Source: Gemmatimonadota bacterium
Lineage (GTDB): Bacteria > Gemmatimonadota > Gemmatimonadetes > Gemmatimonadales > GWC2-71-9
Reading direction: 5' to 3'
Length of the DNA stretch: 64,000 nucleotides
NCBI GenBank assembly: GCA_039588335.1
Contig: JBDGZZ010000001.1
Coordinates: 12,090-76,089, forward strand
Shown: positions 32,265-38,655 of the stretch, one piece after another
Layout: the number at the start of each line of letters is the position of its first letter
How positions within the stretch are numbered: the first letter of the stretch is position 1
Program-made: the position numbers and the translations under genes
Notes under the pieces: generated by a model
Databases searched by the model: none
Told to the model about the DNA's origin: nothing
Seen by the model: only the letters and a program-made list of their open reading frames with translations

Positions 32265-33347
32265 ATGAACGAACAGGGGATGGTGGAACAGCCCGTGAGG
32301 GTCCTCGTCGTCGACGATGATGATGCCCTGAGAAAAGGCCTAGTTCGCTTTCTTTCCAATCAGGGATACTCCGTCAAGGCCGCGGGAACTGGACCGGAGG
32401 CTCTGGAGATACTGAGCGAAGGAGATATCTCCCTCATGCTGTTGGACATCCGGATGCCGGGCATGAGCGGCATCGATGTCGTGCCCGAGGCTCTGCACAT
32501 CGATTCCGACCTGGCGATCCTGATGCTCAGCGCGCTAACGGATGCTACCAGCGCAGCGCTCTGCATGCAGCGCGGGGCAATAGACTACCTCACGAAGCCG
32601 ATCGAGCTGAACGACTTGAGCAAGGCGATAGATCGGGCGCTGCGTAGACGGGACACACTGATCCAGAGCCGCGAGATCTCTACATGGCTCAAGGAAGAAG
32701 TACAACGCCGCACTGAGGAGATTGAACGGGAGCGCCAGAAACAACAACAGCTCACGATCGCAACCCTGGAAGCCCTAGTAAACGCGCTGGAAGCAAAGCA
32801 TCCCTGGATAAGCGGCCACTCCGCGCGCATCGCCGCTTTCTCCGCGACGGTGGCGCACCACATGCAGTTGACTGACGACGAGGTTGAAGACGTTCGTATG
32901 GCCGGTCGCCTGCACGACCTGGGCAAGATCGGCATTCGCGAGTCAGTGTTGAACAAGAACGGCGAACTGACCGATGAAGAGCGCGAGCACGTCAAGCAGC
33001 ACGTTCTCATCGGCTCGCAGATCTTGGCGCCACTAGAGCACCTCGGCCAGATTGTATCGTTCGTGAGAGGCCACCACGAGCACTGGGATGGGACTGGATA
33101 CCCTGACGGCCTCGAGGGTGTGGATATCCCAATCGGAGCACGCGTCATCTGTGCAGCTGAATTGTATGACGCCCTCACCACCTCCCGACCGTATCAAGAC
33201 AAATCCACGCCCGACCATGCAGTCGAGCAAATGCGCGGGCTGAGCGGATCTGTCTTGGACCCCAGTGTGATGGATGCCGTGACTGCTGCCGTGGAAGCTC
33301 GCCGGACTCTTGTCTTCATTGAGGAAGACGACATCACCACTGCCTAG
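32265..33347 (+). CDS. Response regulator with HD-GYP phosphodiesterase domain (RpfG-like)
   Basis: Receiver (VLVVDDDD, MLLDIRMPGMSG, TKP). HD-GYP domain (GRLHDLGKIG, HHEHWDGTGYPDGL). Confidence 0.9.
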   Translation: MNEQGMVEQPVRVLVVDDDDALRKGLVRFLSNQGYSVKAAGTGPEALEILSEGDISLMLLDIRMPGMSGIDVVPEALHIDSDLAILMLSALTDATSAALCMQRGAIDYLTKPIELNDLSKAIDRALRRRDTLIQSREISTWLKEEVQRRTEEIERERQKQQQLTIATLEALVNALEAKHPWISGHSARIAAFSATVAHHMQLTDDEVEDVRMAGRLHDLGKIGIRESVLNKNGELTDEEREHVKQHVLIGSQILAPLEHLGQIVSFVRGHHEHWDGTGYPDGLEGVDIPIGARVICAAELYDALTTSRPYQDKSTPDHAVEQMRGLSGSVLDPSVMDAVTAAVEARRTLVFIEEDDITTA

Positions 33348-34392
33348 GACGCGCCAGGCTGCCTGTGCAGTAGCCGTGCTGCTGGCCGCGTGCACTCCAC
33401 CCACTCGCTGGATAGCCGTAGCGGGCGGCGATAGCACAATCATCTTCTTCAACGCGACCCTCTCCCAATCGGATACTCTATACCTCGAGGTCGACCGAGC
33501 CGGCACCAGATCCGTTGCACTGGCGGAGTTCGGGCGTGACGGGGCGAGGCTCTACACGGTCGGCGAAGGGGGCAGTATCAGCCTCCTCCGCAAGCTGGAC
33601 GGGAGAGAACTCGAGCACATCGAGGCATCACCCAACGAGCTGGCCGGCACGTTGACCGCGTTGCCAGATGCTCGAACCCTGATTAATACGACAGCTCGGG
33701 CCGACGGAACGGGGGGAACCCTGTCGCTCCTGACCGCCGAAACCCTCGAGGCCGGGACAAGGCTCACGCCGTGCGCTGGGTATCCTGGGAAGGTGACGGT
33801 GTTGTGGGACCTTAACAGAGCGTACACGCGATGCCTGGGCGCCATAGGACAGATAGCCGACATCGATCTCAAATTGCGCAGGGTCATCAAAACCGTCCGA
33901 ATCAGCCCGGCAGACTCGACCGAGCATTTCGCGGGGGCGTGCGGCAATGGAGGCATCGACCTCTCCCGTACTGGTACTGTTTTGCTCGTTCCATGCAGCT
34001 CATCTGGCATGTTGCTGTATTTCGATCGGCTCAGGTTAGAACCGCTCGACTCGGTTGCAGCAGGATCGGGCGTGTATCACGTAGCGGTATCTCCCAATGG
34101 CTCCAGGGCAATCGTGAGCTTCCCTGACTCGGGACGGGTGGCGTTCGTTGATCTCCGGAGCCGGCAGGTCACGACCGTGATTCCTACCCCCGGTCGGCCC
34201 ACGGACATCGCCATCGCCGGTGACGGAAGGTGGGGCTACGTCCTCACTTCTGCTGACCCCGGAGACCCCGGTATTCTGGTCCTGCTGGACATGGATAGCG
34301 AACGGGCTATTTCCGAGGCGTCGGTTCCCTTCGGATCTCGGTCACTTTCACTCTGGCCGGGGCGTTGGAGCCCAAGCCTGAGGTGGGAATAG
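33310..34392 (+). CDS. Beta-propeller-repeat lipoprotein (YVTN-like)
   Basis: Lipobox LLAAC. Repeated strand motifs (VAVSPNGSRAIVSF, IAIAGDGRWGYVL). 38-nt overlap with the HD-GYP gene. Confidence 0.65.
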   Translation: MSSLRKTTSPLPRTRQAACAVAVLLAACTPPTRWIAVAGGDSTIIFFNATLSQSDTLYLEVDRAGTRSVALAEFGRDGARLYTVGEGGSISLLRKLDGRELEHIEASPNELAGTLTALPDARTLINTTARADGTGGTLSLLTAETLEAGTRLTPCAGYPGKVTVLWDLNRAYTRCLGAIGQIADIDLKLRRVIKTVRISPADSTEHFAGACGNGGIDLSRTGTVLLVPCSSSGMLLYFDRLRLEPLDSVAAGSGVYHVAVSPNGSRAIVSFPDSGRVAFVDLRSRQVTTVIPTPGRPTDIAIAGDGRWGYVLTSADPGDPGILVLLDMDSERAISEASVPFGSRSLSLWPGRWSPSLRWE

Positions 34393-34434
34393 CCACCCGC
34401 TCAGATCCGGCAGCGGTAGGTTACCGACAAAACA

Positions 34435-34461
34435 AGCCCGGGGCCAAAAGGCACCCGGGCT
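34435..34461. terminator. Hairpin between convergent genes
   Basis: AGCCCGGG-11 nt-CCCGGGCT. On the minus strand it is followed by TGTTTTGTC. Confidence 0.4.
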
Positions 34462-34579
34462 GTTGGGCCGGGCGACGCCGCCGTCAAACGCCGCGCGCGA
34501 CCATTCACCAAACAGGAGAGACAGACACCTCCCGTTGGTACTTAATAACCTCTACCCCCCCCAATTGGTTCCCTCTCTC

Positions 34580-35008
34580 TCAGGGCCACCGCTTGAGGCG
34601 CCCCAACCGAGATACCGTGAGTGATTCGGCGGCCATGCCGCGGCGCAGGACAATCTTCGTGTTGGAGCCGCCCAAGCCTATTCCAGAGGGATAGAACCGA
34701 ATCAGACCGCGCGATGCGTGGAGTGACACACCGTGGACTCTAGGACCGCGCACCCGGACGAGCACGGAATCTGTGCCGTTTTCGGCAACGGCCACCAGAG
34801 AATCCGGGCTAACCTCAACGCGCACTCGCGCTGCACGGTAGATGGCAATCATCCTCGCTTTGAAGTAGAGGCCACGAAAATCCTCCATTGCACGTTCTAC
34901 AGCTACCCTGTCGGCCCACCCTCTCACACGGGGTACCGACAGTGTCGTTAATACTCCCAAAATGAGAAGCACGACAACGAGTTCGAAGAGAGTAAACCCA
35001 CGTTGCAT
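34580..35008 (-). CDS. Prepilin-type minor pseudopilin (GspH/FimT-like)
   Basis: Leader/cleavage motif MQRGFTLFELVVVLLILGVL. 142 aa with a GspH-like C-domain. Confidence 0.8.
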   Translation of the reverse strand: MQRGFTLFELVVVLLILGVLTTLSVPRVRGWADRVAVERAMEDFRGLYFKARMIAIYRAARVRVEVSPDSLVAVAENGTDSVLVRVRGPRVHGVSLHASRGLIRFYPSGIGLGGSNTKIVLRRGMAAESLTVSRLGRLKRWP

Positions 35009-35189
35009 GAGGCAAGATGGGGGGCATTACGCCACGCCGTACAACCGTTAATACGCCCTAAGGGTCTTAGAATTGCGTACTTGGGTGGCGGCACAGGTTG
35101 TGCGAGTCTTTCAACAACGCTCTTGCCCGAGTCCGAACCGGACCGCATACTAGGCGGGCGAGCGCTTCAATTAGCAAAGGAATCCAAGG

Positions 35190-36473
35190 GTGCCCCTAAC
35201 GGACAACCGACTAAGAATAGACAACCTCAGCTTGCACGAGCCGTTTCTGGAGCGGGCTGCCGCCAAGGACACACAAGATTCTGGCAGCGGCGGATTAGGT
35301 GCGTTCCTGACGCTGCGGTTGGTCGATCAATTCGCCGGGGACAAGGAAAATATCTCGACCGACGCCGTGAAATATCAGATCACGGCCACTGGCGAGTTCC
35401 TCGAAGACCTCTACCCTCGTAATCCGGAAATCACCAGCCTCCGCGAAATTGTGCGGGTGTCTGGCGCGGCACTGGAAGTGAGCGACCGGCGTCTGCTCTT
35501 CTCCCCTTTGATGGCGTTCGCCTTCTGGCTGGAGCAGGAGCTGCGGCTGGATGAGGCCCTGGACGTCCTAGGTACGGCGCTGCACTTGAGCGACGGGCGT
35601 AGTGCAGAAGAAGAGGTGGCGGGTTTCCTTCAGAAAGCCCGGGTACTGAGGCTATCGGGCCGATTGGATGACGCTCGGGTAGCCTATCAGAGAAGTGGGA
35701 AAATCGCGGCCCAGATAGGCGACAAACACTCCGTGCTATTGAGCCAGATCGGCCGCGGCGTGGTGATGCAGAAGCTGGGTAACCTGCCGGAATCAGAGCG
35801 AATTCTGTGTGAGGTGATTGCTGCGGCACGTCGCATCGACGATCGCGATGCAGAGGGCAGGGCCTGCCAGGACCTAGCGGGAACGCTATTCTTTGGCGCC
35901 CGAATGGCGCACGCAGCGCATTATGCCTTCCGCGCCTACGAGCTGTTGGAGCAGCCGCTGCAGCGGCTGAGAGCTTTGAGCGACACCGGGGTGTGCTTGA
36001 AGGAACTGGGGCACTATTCGGAGGCGGGCAAGGCCTTCGCCGTGGTTCTTGCCGGCAGGCCGACCCAAGAAATCCGCATTCACACAGTTGTCGAGCTGGT
36101 CGATTTGAGCGCCTTGACCGGTGACCGGATCGGGTTTGAGCGTTGGCGCCGCGAGCTGGCCGAGCAATACGATCATTTACCGCCAGACGACCAGGTGGAC
36201 TTCGACATCAAGGTGGGAACCGGCCTGTCTCAATTTGGCATGCAGTCACAGGCCCGGACCCACCTGGAGCGCGCCCTGGCTCTGGCGGAAGAATGCAAGA
36301 TGGGAGAACGCATCTTCAAGCTCGAGGAATTGCTGAGAACCGGGCAGGAGCAGAGCACCCGCAGAATAGCGGACGCACAGCCCCCCACGGTACAGCCTAC
36401 CGTCGAGCCTCAGCTACAGAGCACACTGGAGAGCCTCAACGCTTTAGCTGTGCCGGAGACGGCCGGAGTCTGA
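35190..36473 (+). CDS. TPR-repeat protein
   Basis: All-alpha protein with repeated ~34-aa A/L/G/Y-rich units (e.g. ARVLRLSGRLDDARVAYQRSGKIA). GTG start. Confidence 0.7.
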   Translation: MPLTDNRLRIDNLSLHEPFLERAAAKDTQDSGSGGLGAFLTLRLVDQFAGDKENISTDAVKYQITATGEFLEDLYPRNPEITSLREIVRVSGAALEVSDRRLLFSPLMAFAFWLEQELRLDEALDVLGTALHLSDGRSAEEEVAGFLQKARVLRLSGRLDDARVAYQRSGKIAAQIGDKHSVLLSQIGRGVVMQKLGNLPESERILCEVIAAARRIDDRDAEGRACQDLAGTLFFGARMAHAAHYAFRAYELLEQPLQRLRALSDTGVCLKELGHYSEAGKAFAVVLAGRPTQEIRIHTVVELVDLSALTGDRIGFERWRRELAEQYDHLPPDDQVDFDIKVGTGLSQFGMQSQARTHLERALALAEECKMGERIFKLEELLRTGQEQSTRRIADAQPPTVQPTVEPQLQSTLESLNALAVPETAGV

Positions 36474-36491
36474 CGGTCTCTGACCAGCTAG

Positions 36492-36653
36492 CTAGGTGCC
36501 GGAGCCCTGCCAGGTGGCCTGCATGCAGGTGCCGGAGCCTTGCCACGTGGTGGAGCATTCTGCTTGCGGCTCAGTAATGTCGGAGCAAGCCGCTGCACCG
36601 AGGGCAAACGTGGCTAGGAGCGCGAAGGCAAGAAGACGAGCACGACGGGACAT
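36492..36653 (-). CDS. 53-aa lipoprotein with tandem C-x3-TWQGSGT repeat (not in ORF track)
   Basis: AGGAGG-ATTC-ATG. Product MSRRARLLAFALLATFALGAAACSDITEPQAECSTTWQGSGTCMQATWQGSGT*. Basic n-region, hydrophobic core, lipobox LGAAAC. The 33-nt repeat is visible at DNA level (36495-36550). Confidence 0.6.
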   Translation of the reverse strand: MSRRARLLAFALLATFALGAAACSDITEPQAECSTTWQGSGTCMQATWQGSGT

Positions 36654-36736
36654 GAATCCTCCTGATGGAGTAGTGACGGAAATGGAATCCAGATTCTATA
36701 GTCCAAAATCAGGTGTGTTTTCCCTACCCGTTAGTG

Positions 36737-36769
36737 CGTTTTTGGGACTTTATACGTCGTTTTTGGGAC
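36737..36769. repeat. Perfect 12-nt direct repeat CGTTTTTGGGAC x2, 21-nt period, in divergent intergenic region
   Basis: Copies at 36737-36748 and 36758-36769, read directly from the sequence. Lies between the small lipoprotein gene (minus) and the AraC-type gene (plus). Confidence 0.6.
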
Positions 36770-36773
36770 ATTT

Positions 36774-37574
36774 GTGCTAGTTTTGGCCGCTACCCGCAGG
36801 CCGCTGGTCATCAGACTGCAGCGCGCCGCCGCCCACCGGTTCCAGTTCTACCAGGTGGATTCGTGGGAATCTGCTGTCGATGCCATCCTGCGCCAGCCGC
36901 TCGAGATGGCCGTGGTGGATCCTGCACTGTCCGGTGAGACCAGAGCCCAAGAAATAGAGCGTATTCGGGTTTTGTTCCCTTCTCTGCCTCTCATCATCTA
37001 TGCGACACTGTCCCCCGACCTCGCACCAGCTCTGCTGAAGCTGGGGCAAGCCGGCCTCACGCAGGTGGTGATCGCCGAGCACGACGACCATCCGAATCGT
37101 CTGAGCGATCTGCTGGCGGCCGAAACGTCGCAGGCTGTGTCTCACCAACTGATTGCTGCGATCTCCGATTTGCTGGCTGAGTGCCCCACCGAGCTGCGCT
37201 GGGCCATCGAAACCATCATTCGTGAACCGACGTCGGTGCAGTCGGTGCAGGAATTGGCCTACCGTGCTCGGATGGACCGCCGCACATGCCTCAGGTGGTT
37301 CGCGCGGGTACATCTGCCACCTCCGAGCGTCATACTGACGGTCCTACGGGCTGTGTACGCTCACAGACTGCTACAGGATCCGGGCTACACGGTTGAGGAC
37401 GTGGCCGCCAAGCTCGGCTACCAGCAGACGCGCACCTTTGCCCAGAACGTCAAGGAAGTGCTCGGCATGACGCCGGGAGAATTGCGAGTGGCTCTAAGCC
37501 CGGAAGAAGCCCTCGCGATAGTGCGGAAGAAGTACTTCGGCAAGACCGATCAAGCGCTGGCTGATGCATCATGA
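36774..37574 (+). CDS. AraC/XylS-type HTH regulator with N-terminal CheY-like domain
   Basis: C-terminal HTH (VQELAYRARMDRRTCLRWF, YTVEDVAAKLGYQQTRTFAQNVKEVLGMTPGELR). N-terminal beta-alpha pattern (LVIRL, MAVVDP, LIIYATL). GTG start directly abuts the repeat, so the start is uncertain. Confidence 0.8.
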   Translation: MLVLAATRRPLVIRLQRAAAHRFQFYQVDSWESAVDAILRQPLEMAVVDPALSGETRAQEIERIRVLFPSLPLIIYATLSPDLAPALLKLGQAGLTQVVIAEHDDHPNRLSDLLAAETSQAVSHQLIAAISDLLAECPTELRWAIETIIREPTSVQSVQELAYRARMDRRTCLRWFARVHLPPPSVILTVLRAVYAHRLLQDPGYTVEDVAAKLGYQQTRTFAQNVKEVLGMTPGELRVALSPEEALAIVRKKYFGKTDQALADAS

Positions 37575-37969
37575 AGAGCCGGTCGATTCTCGTCGTCGAC
37601 AACTATCCCAACGTTCGAAAAGTGTTGGGCGAGGCACTCCAGCGCGCTAGTTACGAGGTCCACCTGGCGGCCTCCGGAGAAGAGGCCTGTGAGATCCTGA
37701 GGCATGTTCCGATCGACGCCGTACTGATGGACCTGCGCATGCCTGCCATGTCGGGCAAGACCCTGTTTCACGTCATCATGAGTCAATGGCCCGAACTCAG
37801 GTCGAGCGTGGCGGTCATGACAGGAGACCCCGACGCGAGCGACCATGAGCCCTGGCTGAAGCTCTACGAACTCCCCGTGGTCATGAAGCCATTCACAATG
37901 ACCCACATGATCTCTTTAGTCGAAGCCATCACCGCCGACCCGCCGCGGGAGGTAAACGGGGAGGTCTGA
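37571..37969 (+). CDS. Single-domain CheY-like response regulator
   Basis: ILVVDN, LMDLRMPAMSG, VMTG, MKPF. ATGA overlap with the upstream gene. Confidence 0.9.
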   Translation: MKSRSILVVDNYPNVRKVLGEALQRASYEVHLAASGEEACEILRHVPIDAVLMDLRMPAMSGKTLFHVIMSQWPELRSSVAVMTGDPDASDHEPWLKLYELPVVMKPFTMTHMISLVEAITADPPREVNGEV

Positions 37970-38655
37970 TGACGATCGCCGGCGCCCGTGCTGACGATCC
38001 GCTGGCGACCCTGCGTGAGTATCGCCAGCTTGCGCCGTGGAATCTACGGGATCTGGCCACGGTCACCGGTGCGATCCTAGAAGCTTCCGGTGTTCGACCA
38101 ATCAACGCGGCGGCGAGTCCGCGACCGAACGAGCGTACCATTCGATACTACGTGACTCGCGGTCTGGTGACTCCACCGGACGGCCGCGGGACAGCTGCCA
38201 CCTATTCCTATCGCCATTTACTCCAGGTCCTCAGCATCAAACTGAGGCAGATGGAGGGTGTGACTCTCTCAGGCATCAGCCGCGAACTCGAAGAACTATC
38301 GGGAGACGTGCTGGAGCGACGAGTTGCAGCCTCTCTGGGATCGGGACTGCCGAGCCCGCGGCATCTCCCCCTCACCAGCCAGGATCGGCCGGCTTGGGGC
38401 CGGTCTGGAAAAGCAATGCGTGCTTGGCTAGTCGAAGACGAGGAAGATGGAGCAGACGATGGAGCGGTTGCCGGAACCAACTGGCGCCGGATTCAGATTT
38501 CTCGGGGTGTCGAACTGCATCTCAATGAGACACACCCTCTTTTGCAGATGGGAGAGCGGGAAGCCGACATAGCAGATGCGGTTCGCTTGGCGGTGGCCCG
38601 CATCCTTGGTCAGGAACCGAGAGGTAGAGGTGACGAGCAGGCAGCCTCCGACTGA
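37969..38655 (+). CDS. MerR-like HTH protein
   Basis: ERTIRYYVTRGLV...YSYRHLLQVLSIKLRQ. Acidic, low-complexity C-terminal half. TGATG coupling to the upstream gene. Confidence 0.7.
   Translation: MTIAGARADDPLATLREYRQLAPWNLRDLATVTGAILEASGVRPINAAASPRPNERTIRYYVTRGLVTPPDGRGTAATYSYRHLLQVLSIKLRQMEGVTLSGISRELEELSGDVLERRVAASLGSGLPSPRHLPLTSQDRPAWGRSGKAMRAWLVEDEEDGADDGAVAGTNWRRIQISRGVELHLNETHPLLQMGEREADIADAVRLAVARILGQEPRGRGDEQAASD

What the first reader, a model, noticed from the sequence alone, without database searches (positions are those of the whole stretch)
36492..36653. Unannotated 53-aa lipoprotein with a tandem Cys-x3-TWQGSGT repeat
Seen in sequence:
- The ORF is below the 60-aa cut-off of the ORF track.
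- On the minus strand AGGAGG-ATTC-ATG opens MSRRARLLAFALLATFALGAAACSDITEPQAECSTTWQGSGTCMQATWQGSGT*.
- It has a basic n-region, a hydrophobic core and a lipobox (LGAAAC). The mature 31-aa peptide would be lipidated on Cys1.
- The mature peptide carries two more Cys, each heading a near-identical unit (CSTTWQGSGT, CMQATWQGSGT).
- The repeat is also visible in DNA as GGTGCCGGAGCC(C/T)TGCCA(G/C)GTGG at 36495 and 36528, a 33-nt period.
- The plus-strand ORFs listed over this region (36143-36577, 36496-36780) have no such features.
- The gene is convergent with the TPR gene, and divergent from an AraC-receiver/CheY/MerR operon across a repeat-bearing intergenic region.

Inference: a small surface or periplasmic lipopeptide, possibly a signal or disulfide-constrained ligand tied to the neighbouring regulators.
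Basis: partly seen in the sequence, partly recalled or inferred. Interest (0 to 1): 0.55.

Follow-up and report, generated by a model that had tools for sequence, protein, structure and literature searches.

The report
Repeat-tailed lipopeptide with co-evolving TPR partner
The 53-codon ORF is a real, conserved gene for a small exported (lipoprotein-type) peptide of Gemmatimonadota whose repeated 7-residue tail changes together with the neighbouring TPR protein, so it looks like a Gram-positive-style peptide-signal/receptor pair in a Gram-negative phylum.

Summary
ORF 36492-36653(-) exists, with a Shine-Dalgarno site, a lipobox and two TWQGSGT units.

It is a genuine gene:
- About 180 related clusters, where named all Gemmatimonadota MAGs.
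- dN/dS 0.14 over the first 29 codons, at saturated dS.
- It is the only frame open in all 23 loci examined.

The two units of a peptide are identical in protein but differ at synonymous sites: 25 of 61 codons differ and none changes the residue. The unit differs between genomes, with 44 distinct units seen.

The conserved module is three genes: an AraC-type regulator with a pseudo-receiver domain, the peptide, and a convergent cytoplasmic 427-aa TPR protein. It recurs in three unrelated genomic contexts.

The peptide core and the C-terminal ~240-260 residues of the TPR protein form one ~1-kb polymorphic block inside otherwise near-identical DNA. This holds for the window's own closest relative. 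Two alleles coexist in one metagenome sample.

Trp-type peptides always pair with Gly231/Gly236 in the TPR; Phe, Ile and Tyr types of the same clades have Ala/Ala.

Best reading (about 0.5): a Rap-Phr/RRNPP-like peptide-ligand/TPR-receptor recognition cassette with pherotype-like alleles. Export, processing, binding and signalling are all inferred, not shown.

The parts
36492..36653 (-). Pre-peptide gene, 53 codons plus stop: signal peptide, linker, and two 7-residue units
   Evidence: Searches give the sequence. Searches give the homologues; dN/dS 0.14 over the first 29 codons, with variable columns at codon positions 1/2/3 = 16/10/27; the only frame open in all 23 loci.
36658..36663 (-). Shine-Dalgarno AGGAGG, 4 nt before the ATG
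   Evidence: A GGAGG-like element precedes the ATG in all aligned loci.
36588..36653 (-). Signal peptide, residues 1-22: MSRRAR n-region, 12-residue hydrophobic core, GAAA before Cys23
   Evidence: Read directly from the sequence. It fits the PROSITE lipobox rule as I recall it; 176 of 178 family members have [AGS]-Cys at this place. SignalP and LipoP were not available.
36585..36587 (-). Cys23, the predicted lipidated first residue of the mature 31-residue peptide
   Evidence: An invariant column in alignments A1-A4. Lipidation itself is inferred.
36528..36548 (-). Unit 1, TWQGSGT (residues 36-42), lying between Cys33 and Cys43
   Evidence: It differs from unit 2 only at two synonymous sites (ACG/ACC and CAA/CAG).
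36495..36515 (-). Unit 2, TWQGSGT (residues 47-53), at the very C-terminus
   Evidence: In 58 of 178 family representatives the C-terminal unit recurs exactly earlier in the peptide.
36737..36772 (-). Two direct repeats, GTCCCAAAAACG with 21-nt spacing, in the divergent promoter region next to the AraC-like start codon. Probably a regulator-binding site.
   Evidence: the only two matches in the window. They are conserved as GTC[CG]CAAAA..(N11)..G[TC]C[CG]CAAAA in both clades. The function is inferred.
35190..36473 (+). Cytoplasmic all-helical TPR protein (427 aa), the proposed specific binding partner or receptor of the unit
   Evidence: TPR_12 3e-10. AF2 mean pLDDT 89.1, 20 helices, and no signal peptide visible in the sequence; best TM-scores to Rap/NprR. 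It is adjacent to the peptide gene in every locus with enough flank.
35760..36470 (+). Variable C-terminal TPR region (about residues 191-427), which forms one polymorphic block with the peptide core
   Evidence: window versus L042 has 6 differences in 33690-35789 and about 166 in 35790-36690. Searches show the same block in other pairs. Gly231/Gly236 go with Trp-type peptides.
36774..37574 (+). AraC-type regulator (C-terminal HTH_18) with an N-terminal receiver-like domain that lacks the acidic pair. Third member of the conserved trio.
   Evidence: HTH_18 1.1e-14; weak receiver hits 3kcn 0.0076, FleR 0.0078, HupR 0.066; alignment with invariant D49. Synteny.
37571..38655 (+). CheY-like receiver (37571-37969) and MerR-family regulator (37969-38655), co-oriented with the AraC-like gene. 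Accessory genes, not present in all contexts.
   Evidence: Present in window-type loci. Absent from L011, L029 and L033.

Best explanation
A three-gene recognition cassette that is widespread in Gemmatimonadota.

1. The 53-residue pre-peptide is exported through Sec and cut before the invariant Cys23. The cleavage is probably by signal peptidase II, with lipidation of Cys23.
2. The functional element is the 7-residue unit x-[W/F/Y/I/V..]-Q-G-S-[G/Q/H/N]-T. Here it is present twice: once between two Cys and once as the free C-terminus.
3. That unit is recognised specifically by the C-terminal repeats of the adjacent cytoplasmic TPR protein.
4. The conserved N-terminal part of the TPR protein passes the state on. 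The most likely target is the divergently encoded AraC-type regulator, which has a pseudo-receiver domain and probably acts on the conserved direct repeats upstream of the peptide gene.
5. Peptide core and TPR C-domain evolve as one recombining specificity block with many alleles, as in pheromone types.

The most likely biology is therefore Rap-Phr/RRNPP-like cell-cell signalling or kind discrimination.

Shown here: the coding status, the family, the conserved trio, selection for identical units, the mosaic block, and the Trp/Gly covariation.

Inferred: export and lipidation, proteolytic release and re-import, physical binding, the link to the AraC-like protein, and the signalling role.
For: Real gene:
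- dN/dS 0.14 at dS 1.19 over the first 29 codons.
- The only open frame in all 23 loci.
- No Rfam match.

Family:
- 63 clusters from the word-indexed search and 131 representatives at 50% identity from the full search.
- All loci that carry an organism name are Gemmatimonadota MAGs.

The unit is the selected element:
- Within nine genes, 25 of 61 unit codons differ between the two copies, and every difference is synonymous.
- 58 of 178 representatives end in a unit that recurs exactly earlier. 43 of these units are 7 residues long, and there are 44 distinct units.
- Rare intermediates have copies that differ by one residue: P0012, P0020, P0021 and P0227.

The trio is kept while everything else changes: L011, L029, L033/34 and L031.

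TPR identity follows the peptide core, not the flanks:
- Same core: TPR 94-99% identical.
- Different core: TPR 71-87% identical, while AraC, CheY, MerR and GspH are 93-100%.

Sharp mosaic blocks:
- L036 versus L040: 144 differences lie between -60 and +961 of the peptide ATG. The next 2,440 nt have none.
- In that pair, TPR residues 1-165 have dS 0 and residues 166-427 have dS 0.48.
- L021 versus L022 shows the same pattern.
- Window versus L042: 6 differences in 2,100 nt, then about 166 in 900 nt.
- Both alleles occur in one sample, JGI 3300056881.

Covariation:
- All 6 Trp-type loci have G231/G236. Seven Phe/Ile/Tyr-type loci of the same clades have A231/A236.
- In clade A, C269 goes with Trp and F269 with Phe.
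- The Trp/Phe split is the best-supported of the ten 3:3 partitions in the C-domain, and has no support in the N-domain.
- Two of three blind predictions were correct.

TPR model:
- Mean pLDDT 89.1.
- The highest TM-scores are to peptide-bound Rap proteins and NprR: 0.51-0.55 on the query and 0.60-0.66 on the target.

The cassette meets the five-point RRNPP signature of PMC10075063. Tandemly duplicated pheromone units are documented for Phr propeptides (PMC5199041, PMC11343458).
Against: - No experiment, and no SignalP or LipoP run.
- A lipobox implies a membrane-anchored product, not a diffusible one. Release of the unit would need an unknown protease.
- The receptor candidate is cytoplasmic, so re-import across two membranes is required. 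No Opp-type importer is in the parts of the window that I scanned.
- In 98 of 178 family members the single unit sits inside a Cys-Cys loop, unlike the linear RRNPP pheromones.
- The TPR protein has no significant sequence similarity to RRNPPA receptors: RapJ E = 0.087, while LGN/Pins scores 3e-13.
- The fold match is moderate, with rmsd about 10 A. The viral library gave only generic TPR hits.
- The genes are convergent, which is not the usual RRNPP arrangement.
- dN/dS inside the variable block is 0.15. There is thus no direct signature of positive selection, only old alleles.
- Physical linkage alone would make the adjacent peptide core and TPR 3' end co-transfer.
Confidence: 0.5

Rival explanations
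1. Intracellular partner switch coupled to export. The TPR protein binds the unit of the not-yet-exported pre-peptide in the cytoplasm, like a class II type III secretion chaperone. When the peptide leaves, the freed TPR protein co-activates or releases the AraC-type regulator. Known parallels are IpgC/MxiE in Shigella and ExsC/ExsE/ExsA in Pseudomonas.
For: - The same triad of TPR protein, AraC-family regulator and exported small protein. The IpgC/MxiE paradigm is in PMC3299695.
- The TPR protein is cytoplasmic, and the pre-peptide passes through the cytoplasm in reduced, linear form. This removes the re-import problem and the Cys-loop problem.
- Several units could bind several TPR molecules.
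- The covariation and the mosaic block fit any direct binding, wherever it happens.
Against: - A purely intracellular switch gives no reason for dozens of discrete alleles that coexist within one population.
- Export here is by the housekeeping Sec pathway, not by a regulated secretion apparatus.
- The TPR protein has about 9 repeats in 427 residues, not the 3.5 repeats of class II chaperones (PMC10701871 abstract).
- No type III secretion genes are nearby.
Confidence: 0.2
2. A polymorphic surface or periplasmic lipopeptide, for example for kin recognition, adhesion, or as a phage or predator target. Its variation is driven from outside the cell. The TPR gene varies for its own reasons, or by hitch-hiking, and does not bind the peptide.
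For: - The invariant lipobox Cys.
- A short Gly/Ser/Asn/Thr-rich exposed tail.
- High allelic diversity.
- Fast evolution of other envelope genes next door, the beta-propeller lipoprotein and the GspH-like pseudopilin.
Against: - The trio is kept in three unrelated contexts.
- The block boundaries fall inside the TPR gene, at its N/C domain border, in independent pairs.
- The Trp/Gly231/Gly236 association recurs in at least three independent contrasts.
Confidence: 0.12
3. Precursor of a ribosomally made, post-translationally modified peptide (RiPP), with a conserved leader, one to five variable cores, and Cys or aromatic residues as modification sites.
For: - The N-terminal 29 residues are conserved while the core is hypervariable and multi-copy.
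- A very weak NCBIfam hit of the TPR protein to a cyclophane-RiPP TPR protein: E = 0.0093, 14 bits against a cut-off of 1125.
Against: - The 'leader' is a textbook lipoprotein signal peptide.
- No radical-SAM, YcaO, lanthionine, MNIO or other modifying enzyme is in the conserved trio or in any of the four contexts.
- Cys and aromatic residues are absent from many family members.
Confidence: 0.06
4. An ordinary small lipoprotein of no special function, whose low-complexity tail duplicated by replication slippage. Alternatively, a spurious ORF or a non-coding element.
For: - The short ORF is below usual length cut-offs.
- The tail is Gly/Ser-rich.
- A 33-nt tandem repeat is visible in the DNA.
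Against: - 25 synonymous and 0 non-synonymous differences between the copies rule out both recent slippage and neutrality.
- dN/dS is 0.14.
- The family spans the phylum.
- No Rfam hit.
- Stop codons appear in the other frames.
Confidence: 0.03

Closest known systems
Rap-Phr and the wider RRNPP(A) peptide quorum-sensing systems of Bacillota (Rap, Rgg, NprR, PlcR, PrgX, AimR)
   Same: - A small Sec-exported pre-peptide is encoded next to a cytoplasmic TPR protein of 250-500 aa. This is the five-point signature of PMC10075063.
- The active unit of 5-10 residues lies at the C-terminus (PMC11343458).
- There are 1-4 or more tandem copies of the unit, sometimes slightly diverged (PMC5199041, PMC11343458).
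- Peptide and receptor co-diversify into many specificities.
- Like Rap, the TPR protein has no recognisable HTH, and receiver-domain proteins are encoded alongside.
- Rap, NprR and phage Rap give the best TM-scores for the model.
- Many units end in Thr, as do the Phr peptides listed (RGHTS, ERPVGT).
   Different: - The phylum is Gemmatimonadota (the MAG titles), a Gram-negative phylum.
- The signal peptide is lipoprotein-type (SPII), with an invariant Cys.
- In most members the unit is enclosed in a Cys-Cys loop.
- The gene order is convergent.
- There is no significant sequence homology to RRNPPA receptors.
- A separate AraC-type regulator with a pseudo-receiver domain is the third conserved gene.
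- Processing and import are unknown.
Pherotype loci such as comQXP of Bacillus and agrBDCA of staphylococci (from my own knowledge; Rap-Phr diversification in PMC5199041)
   Same: Signal and receptor specificity regions form one polymorphic block, flanked by conserved sequence. Old alleles are exchanged by recombination and coexist within a population.
   Different: The proteins are unrelated. Those systems use membrane histidine-kinase receptors and modified peptides. Here the partner is a soluble TPR protein.
Type III secretion TPR chaperone plus AraC-family activator circuits (IpgC/MxiE, SicA/InvF)
   Same: A TPR protein, an AraC-family regulator and an exported small protein are encoded together. 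The TPR protein could act as co-regulator (PMC3299695).
   Different: - No secretion apparatus is present.
- The TPR protein is much longer.
- The exported partner is a 53-residue Sec/lipobox peptide.
- The strong allelic diversity is not a feature of those circuits.
Enterococcal and staphylococcal sex pheromones derived from lipoprotein precursors (cAD1, cCF10, cAM373; from my own knowledge)
   Same: A peptide signal originates from a lipoprotein precursor gene. In Enterococcus it is sensed by a cytoplasmic RRNPP-type receptor (PrgX/TraA).
   Different: There the pheromone is the signal peptide itself, and the lipoproteins are large with other functions. Here the signal peptide is conserved, the variable repeated unit is at the mature C-terminus, and the whole mature product is only 18-43 residues long.
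Multi-copy pheromone precursors of fungi (alpha-factor type) and multi-core RiPP precursors
   Same: One precursor carries several identical or near-identical copies of a short peptide. PMC5199041 draws the same parallel for Phr.
   Different: No Kex2-like dibasic spacers and no modifying enzymes are present, and this is a bacterial lipobox precursor.

Membership tests
Bacterial lipoprotein (Sec/SPII substrate) | Positively charged n-region, a hydrophobic core, then a lipobox [LVI..][ASTG][AGS]-Cys with the Cys at about position 15-35 | tested here: met
   In the window peptide: MSRRAR, then LLAFALLATFAL, then GAAA-C23. 176 of 178 family members have [AGS]-Cys at this place, and Ala is at -1 in 169. 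Cys23 is invariant in A1-A4. This is a rule-based check only; SignalP and LipoP were not available.
Bacterial lipoprotein (Sec/SPII substrate) | Actual diacylglyceryl modification and cleavage by signal peptidase II | not testable with these tools
   This needs globomycin sensitivity, lipid labelling or mass spectrometry.
RRNPP(A) quorum-sensing systems | Small pre-peptide (10-100 aa) with a secretion signal | tested here: met
   The pre-peptide is 53 aa with a signal peptide by rule. Because the signal is SPII-type, it would fall in the 'relaxed' class of RRNPP_detector (PMC10075063).
RRNPP(A) quorum-sensing systems | Receptor of 250-500 aa containing TPRs, encoded directly next to the pre-peptide gene | tested here: met
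   The protein is 427 aa, with TPR_12 at 3e-10. It is adjacent in all loci with flank. The L011 and L029 variants are 604-605 aa.
RRNPP(A) quorum-sensing systems | Receptor homologous to the Rap/Rgg/NprR/PlcR/PrgX/AimR family | tested here: not met
   A profile of 65 homologues against PDB sequences gave RapJ at E = 0.087 and pLS20 Rap at 0.22, against LGN/Pins at 3e-13. No Pfam or NCBIfam Rap, Rgg or NprR model was hit.
RRNPP(A) quorum-sensing systems | Rap/NprR-like fold: an N-terminal effector domain plus a compact TPR superhelix that closes on the peptide | tested here: inconclusive
   Foldseek gave the best TM-scores to RapJ (4gyo, 0.53/0.63), phage Rap with ERPVGT (8rte, 0.55/0.66) and NprR (5dbk, 0.51/0.60). 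However, rmsd is about 10 A, and MalT domain III scores similarly. The viral library gave generic TPR hits only.
RRNPP(A) quorum-sensing systems | Peptide and receptor specificity co-evolve | tested here: met
   TPR identity follows core identity. The mosaic block covers the core and the TPR C-domain. The Trp/G231/G236 association holds.
RRNPP(A) quorum-sensing systems | Extracellular maturation to a 5-10-residue peptide, re-import by an oligopeptide permease, and binding in the cytoplasm | not testable with these tools
   No Opp-type genes were found among the ORFs of the window that I scanned. The rest of the genome was not available.
RiPP precursor | A dedicated modifying enzyme co-encoded with the precursor | tested here: not met
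   No such enzyme is in the conserved trio or in any of the four genomic contexts.
Type III secretion class II chaperone / AraC co-activator circuit | A short (about 3.5-repeat) TPR chaperone encoded with a type III secretion apparatus and its translocators | tested here: not met
   The TPR protein is 427 aa with about 9 helix pairs. No secretion-apparatus genes are nearby. The only NCBIfam hits to SscB and SctY are weak (E = 0.03 and 0.084).

The most novel reading that the evidence does not exclude
This is the first peptide-pheromone/cytoplasmic-TPR-receptor communication or kind-discrimination system outside the Bacillota, and it is widespread in Gemmatimonadota. It has evolved its own solutions: export as a lipoprotein-type precursor, a unit displayed in a disulfide loop and/or as tandem C-terminal copies, and output through an AraC-type pseudo-response regulator. 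Because the two genes are convergent, the peptide core and the receptor's ligand-binding half sit back to back as a single ~1-kb cassette. Recombination swaps this cassette between otherwise identical genomes.
Probability: 0.4. Interest if true: 0.85.

Novelty: new variant of a known kind. Interest (0 to 1): 0.72.

Why it matters
Genetically encoded peptide signals read by cytoplasmic TPR receptors are regarded as a hallmark of Bacillota and their phages. The large-scale screens were run on Firmicutes and viruses (PMC10075063).

A phylum-wide analogue in Gemmatimonadota would matter in three ways:
- It would show that this logic arose, or spread, in diderm bacteria.
- It would give a handle on social behaviour in an abundant but mostly uncultured soil and sediment phylum.
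- It would offer a compact natural example of how signal and receptor specificities are kept matched: two convergent genes forming one recombining cassette.

The observed Trp/Gly231/Gly236 pairing gives an immediately testable specificity rule.

Even if the signalling reading is wrong, the finding still defines an unnamed family of about 180 clusters of 40-64-residue exported peptides, with a specific protein partner.

Tried and rejected
- **Known families.** Pfam, NCBIfam and PADLOC gave nothing for the peptide, apart from a sub-threshold signal-peptide-like hit to YhcN. There was no Rfam match in 35000-38000.
- **False positives.**
  - L012 (Acidimicrobiales) is an unrelated lipoprotein matched only through its signal peptide.
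  - P0190 is a 470-aa repeat protein matched by chance.
  - Both were excluded, along with P0064, P0065 and P0068.
- **Complex prediction.** No complex model could be made.
- **Entropy per helix.** Per-helix column entropy of the TPR alignment gave no clear contrast between A and B helices. I dropped it.
- **Viral fold library.** The search returned generic TPR proteins.
- **Promoter and terminator scan.** It found only one sigma-70-like site, on the + strand at 36673-36702, and no terminator. I drew no conclusion from it.
- **Literature.** Searches for RRNPP or peptide signalling in Gemmatimonadota returned nothing relevant.
- **The 'G231/G236 implies Trp' rule.** Only 'Trp implies G/G' holds.
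- **M48 peptidase and LemA as processing partners.** I rejected these because they are absent from L011, L029 and L033.
Full report
**1. The observation**

The minus-strand ORF 36492-36653 reads MSRRARLLAFALLATFALGAAACSDITEPQAECSTTWQGSGTCMQATWQGSGT*. AGGAGG lies 4 nt before the ATG.

The DNA repeat is a 24-nt pair at 36494-36517 and 36527-36550, with a period of 33 nt. No other WQGSG-type motif occurs in any frame of the window.

The gene is convergent with a TPR gene (35190-36473), 18 nt apart. It is divergent from an HTH_18 (AraC-type) gene at 36774-37574, which is followed by a CheY-like receiver and a MerR regulator.

The exact protein already exists in NCBI and JGI records as 'hypothetical protein'.

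**2. It is a real, conserved gene**

- A word-indexed search found 13 close clusters. A profile search found 63. A full profile scan of 1.84 billion representatives found 131 at E <= 0.001.
- Where an organism name exists, it is a Gemmatimonadota MAG.
- Over the first 29 codons the two-unit clade has pooled dS 1.19 and dN 0.16, giving dN/dS 0.14. Variable columns at codon positions 1/2/3 number 16/10/27.
- This frame is the only one of six that is open in all 23 loci examined.
- No Rfam family matches.

**3. Anatomy of the family**

The N-terminus is a lipoprotein-type signal peptide. 176 of 178 members have [AGS]-Cys after the hydrophobic core, with Ala at -1 in 169. This is usually followed by [SA]-D-x-T-x-P. 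Mature products are 18-43 residues long, median 25.

The core holds a unit of about 7 residues, rich in Q/G/S/N/T. It takes four layouts:

| Layout | Example |
|---|---|
| One unit inside a C-x(4-10)-C loop with a tail of 0-3 residues (98 of 178) | CDTNSPNTCH |
| A looped unit plus a linear copy at the C-terminus (the window type) | C..TWQGSGT-CMQA-TWQGSGT |
| 2-5 Cys-free tandem units | HTIGSGN x4, HTLGSEN x5, SVQNSGTH x3 |
| One linear C-terminal unit | ..ENVQGSGT |

58 of 178 representatives end in a unit that recurs exactly earlier in the peptide. 43 of those units are exactly 7 residues long, and there are 44 different units.

**4. The two copies are kept identical by selection, not by recent duplication**

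In nine loci, 25 of the 61 codons of the shared unit differ between copy 1 and copy 2. Every one of these differences is synonymous. In the window the differences are ACG/ACC and CAA/CAG.

Between genomes both copies change together: TW, GW, SW, NW, GF, NI, SY and so on. A few peptides have copies that differ by one residue (P0012, P0020, P0021, P0227).

The same pattern, with the same interpretation of duplication as a route to new specificity, is described for Phr pro-peptides (PMC5199041, PMC11343458).

**5. The conserved module is a trio**

In the window-type context the whole neighbourhood is syntenic, so synteny there says little. Three other contexts are more informative. In each of them only the divergent AraC-like gene, the peptide gene and the convergent TPR gene persist:

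- L011 and L029, flanked by Peptidase_S13 and FUR, with a 604-605-aa TPR protein.
- L033 and L034, flanked by PQQ dehydrogenase, cytochrome c, desaturase and RND efflux genes.
- L031 and L032, where one side differs.

CheY, MerR, LemA and M48 are therefore accessory.

Upstream of the peptide gene lie two direct repeats, GTC[CG]CAAAA, 21 nt apart. They are conserved across clades and occur nowhere else in the window. I infer that they are a regulator-binding site.

**6. The TPR protein is the peptide's specific partner (the key result)**

*Identity follows the core.* Across syntenic loci, TPR identity follows peptide-core identity rather than flank identity.

| Pair | Core | TPR identity | Flank identity |
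|---|---|---|---|
| L001/L015 | same | 94% | AraC 98% |
| L018/L024 | same | 99% | AraC 100% |
| L020/L021 | same | 97% | AraC 94%, GspH 99% |
| L021/L022 | different | 80% | AraC 97%, CheY 100%, MerR 97%, GspH 99% |
| L036/L040 | different | C-domain 87% | TPR N-domain, GspH and beta-propeller 100% |

*Sharp boundaries.*
- L036 versus L040: all 144 differences lie between -60 and +961 of the peptide ATG. They are followed by 2,440 nt without a single difference.
- In that pair, TPR residues 1-165 have dS 0. Residues 166-427 have dS 0.48 and dN 0.07.
- L021 versus L022: dS is 0.07-0.17 in the N-terminal 150 residues and about 1 or more in the rest.

*The window itself.* Against L042 (GCA_039590475.1) there are 6 differences in 33690-35789 and about 166 in 35790-36690. 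This gives 40 amino-acid changes in TPR residues 191-427 and 1 in residues 1-190. The peptide changes from TWQGSGT to [S/G]FQGSGT.

*Coexistence.* L037 (GFQGSGT allele) and L040 (GWQGSGT allele) come from the same JGI sample, 3300056881.

Peptide core and the C-terminal ~240-260 residues of the TPR protein therefore form one old-allele block. Recombination moves this block between near-identical genomes. The convergent gene order places the two variable parts back to back.

**7. Residue-level covariation**

- All six Trp-type loci from two clades (window, L004, L040, L013, L008, L043) have Gly231 and Gly236 in helix 11, in the motif DL[AG]GTL[FY]FG[AG]R.
- Seven Phe-, Ile- or Tyr-type loci of the same clades (L035, L036, L038, L042, L001, L015, L010) have Ala/Ala.
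- In clade A, Cys269 goes with Trp and Phe269 with Phe.
- The larger peptide side chain thus pairs with smaller TPR residues.
- Among the ten 3:3 partitions of the six clade-A proteins, the Trp/Phe partition has the most disjoint columns in the C-domain: 8, of which 3 are fixed, with the runner-up at 6 and 2. It has none in the N-domain.

I predicted the neighbouring peptide from the TPR motif for three proteins:

| TPR protein | Motif | Neighbouring peptide | Prediction |
|---|---|---|---|
| P0070 | A/A | Phe type | correct |
| P0088 | G/G | SWQGSGT x2 | correct |
| P0138 (distant) | G/G | TIHGSNT | wrong |

P0087/P0014, paired only by equal contig length, is a second G/G exception. So 'Trp implies G/G' holds, and the converse does not. 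The sample is small and only partly independent, with about three or four contrasts.

**8. What the proteins look like**

*TPR protein.*
- It has no hydrophobic N-terminus.
- It is modelled with mean pLDDT 89.1 and pTM 0.87 as 20 helices.
- By sequence profile it is closest to LGN/Pins TPRs (3e-13). Rap proteins are only marginal, at 0.087.
- By Foldseek the best TM-scores are to peptide-bound Rap proteins, NprR and MalT domain III, at 0.50-0.55 and 0.57-0.66.
- The viral library gave nothing specific.
- The fold is compatible with a Rap-like receptor but is not diagnostic of one.

*AraC-like protein.*
- It has a C-terminal HTH_18 domain.
- Its N-terminal domain gives only weak receiver hits.
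- It lacks the acidic pair after strand 1 but keeps an invariant Asp49. I read it as a pseudo-receiver.

**9. Interpretation**

The data fit a specific peptide-ligand/TPR-receptor pair with pherotype-like alleles, coupled to an AraC-type regulator.

It satisfies the five-point RRNPP signature: small pre-peptide, secretion signal, receptor of 250-500 aa, TPRs, and adjacency (PMC10075063). It also shares the duplicated-unit feature.

It is not a member of the RRNPPA receptor family by sequence. It also differs in phylum, in the lipobox, in the Cys loop, in gene order and in the third gene.

Still inferred: export and lipidation, release of the unit, re-import, binding, and output.

The main rival is a cytoplasmic partner switch of the IpgC/MxiE kind (PMC3299695). 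That model avoids the re-import problem but does not explain the coexisting alleles.

The RiPP, plain-lipoprotein and non-coding readings are poorly supported.

**10. Verdict**

- Confidence that this is a real exported-peptide gene: about 0.95.
- Confidence that its unit is specifically matched to the TPR protein: about 0.7.
- Confidence that the system is cell-cell signalling or kind discrimination of the RRNPP type: about 0.4-0.5.
- I found no family model and no paper describing it.

Noticed in passing
L020 versus L021, about -775 to -1561 nt upstream of the peptide ATG (3' part of the AraC-like gene, CheY and MerR): There is a second, independent mosaic block. Identity falls to 56-80% over the CheY/MerR region, while the peptide, TPR and GspH genes are 92-100% identical. 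CheY is 68% identical, against TPR 97% and GspH 99%. The regulator operon may carry its own exchangeable alleles.
   Followed up: no
window 33310-34392 (+) and 34580-35008 (-): The beta-propeller lipoprotein and the GspH-like pseudopilin next to the TPR gene evolve fast. The propeller is 40-60% identical and GspH 55-74%, where AraC is 74-94% and LemA 88-95%. Yet both are 100% identical in the L036/L040 pair.
   Followed up: partly
L011 6134-7951 (-) and L029 5180-6994 (-): In the sub-family with Cys-free multi-unit peptides (YE[SA]GPN x2, HTIGSGN x4), the TPR protein is 604-605 aa long. It has an extra N-terminal region of about 180 residues with no Pfam match. In L029 the peptide and TPR genes overlap by 4 nt at their 3' ends.
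   Followed up: partly
window 36773-36776, and the aligned loci: The AraC-like ORF starts (GTG 36774) directly after the second direct repeat. This leaves no room for a Shine-Dalgarno site. The transcript may be leaderless, or the repeats may lie in its 5' UTR. A sigma-70-like site on the + strand at 36673-36702 would place them in a UTR of about 70 nt.
   Followed up: no
L018-L026, about 25-60 nt after the peptide stop codon: A conserved GC-rich hairpin, GCGGCGAGGGAGG-CCGACA-CCTCCCTCACCGC, lies inside the last codons of the convergent TPR gene (..AVREVSASLAAL). It may serve as a bidirectional terminator embedded in coding sequence. The window itself has no terminator-like site here.
   Followed up: no
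P0002 and P0004: JGI names these 51-56-residue peptides 'opacity protein-like surface antigen'. This is probably a spurious transfer based on the signal peptide.
   Followed up: no
P0069 and P0071 versus P0070: JGI calls the TPR protein 413 aa long, and NCBI calls it 427 aa. Residues 1-12 of the 427-aa form have pLDDT below 50. The true start codon is therefore uncertain.
   Followed up: no
P0190: This 470-aa protein is built of about eight near-identical 53-residue repeats (..TLSTVACGDVFTVAVSN.KCYTFGSNQCGQLGYN..). It scored 5e-19 against the peptide profile. It is an unrelated repeat protein and a warning about short-profile searches.
   Followed up: no
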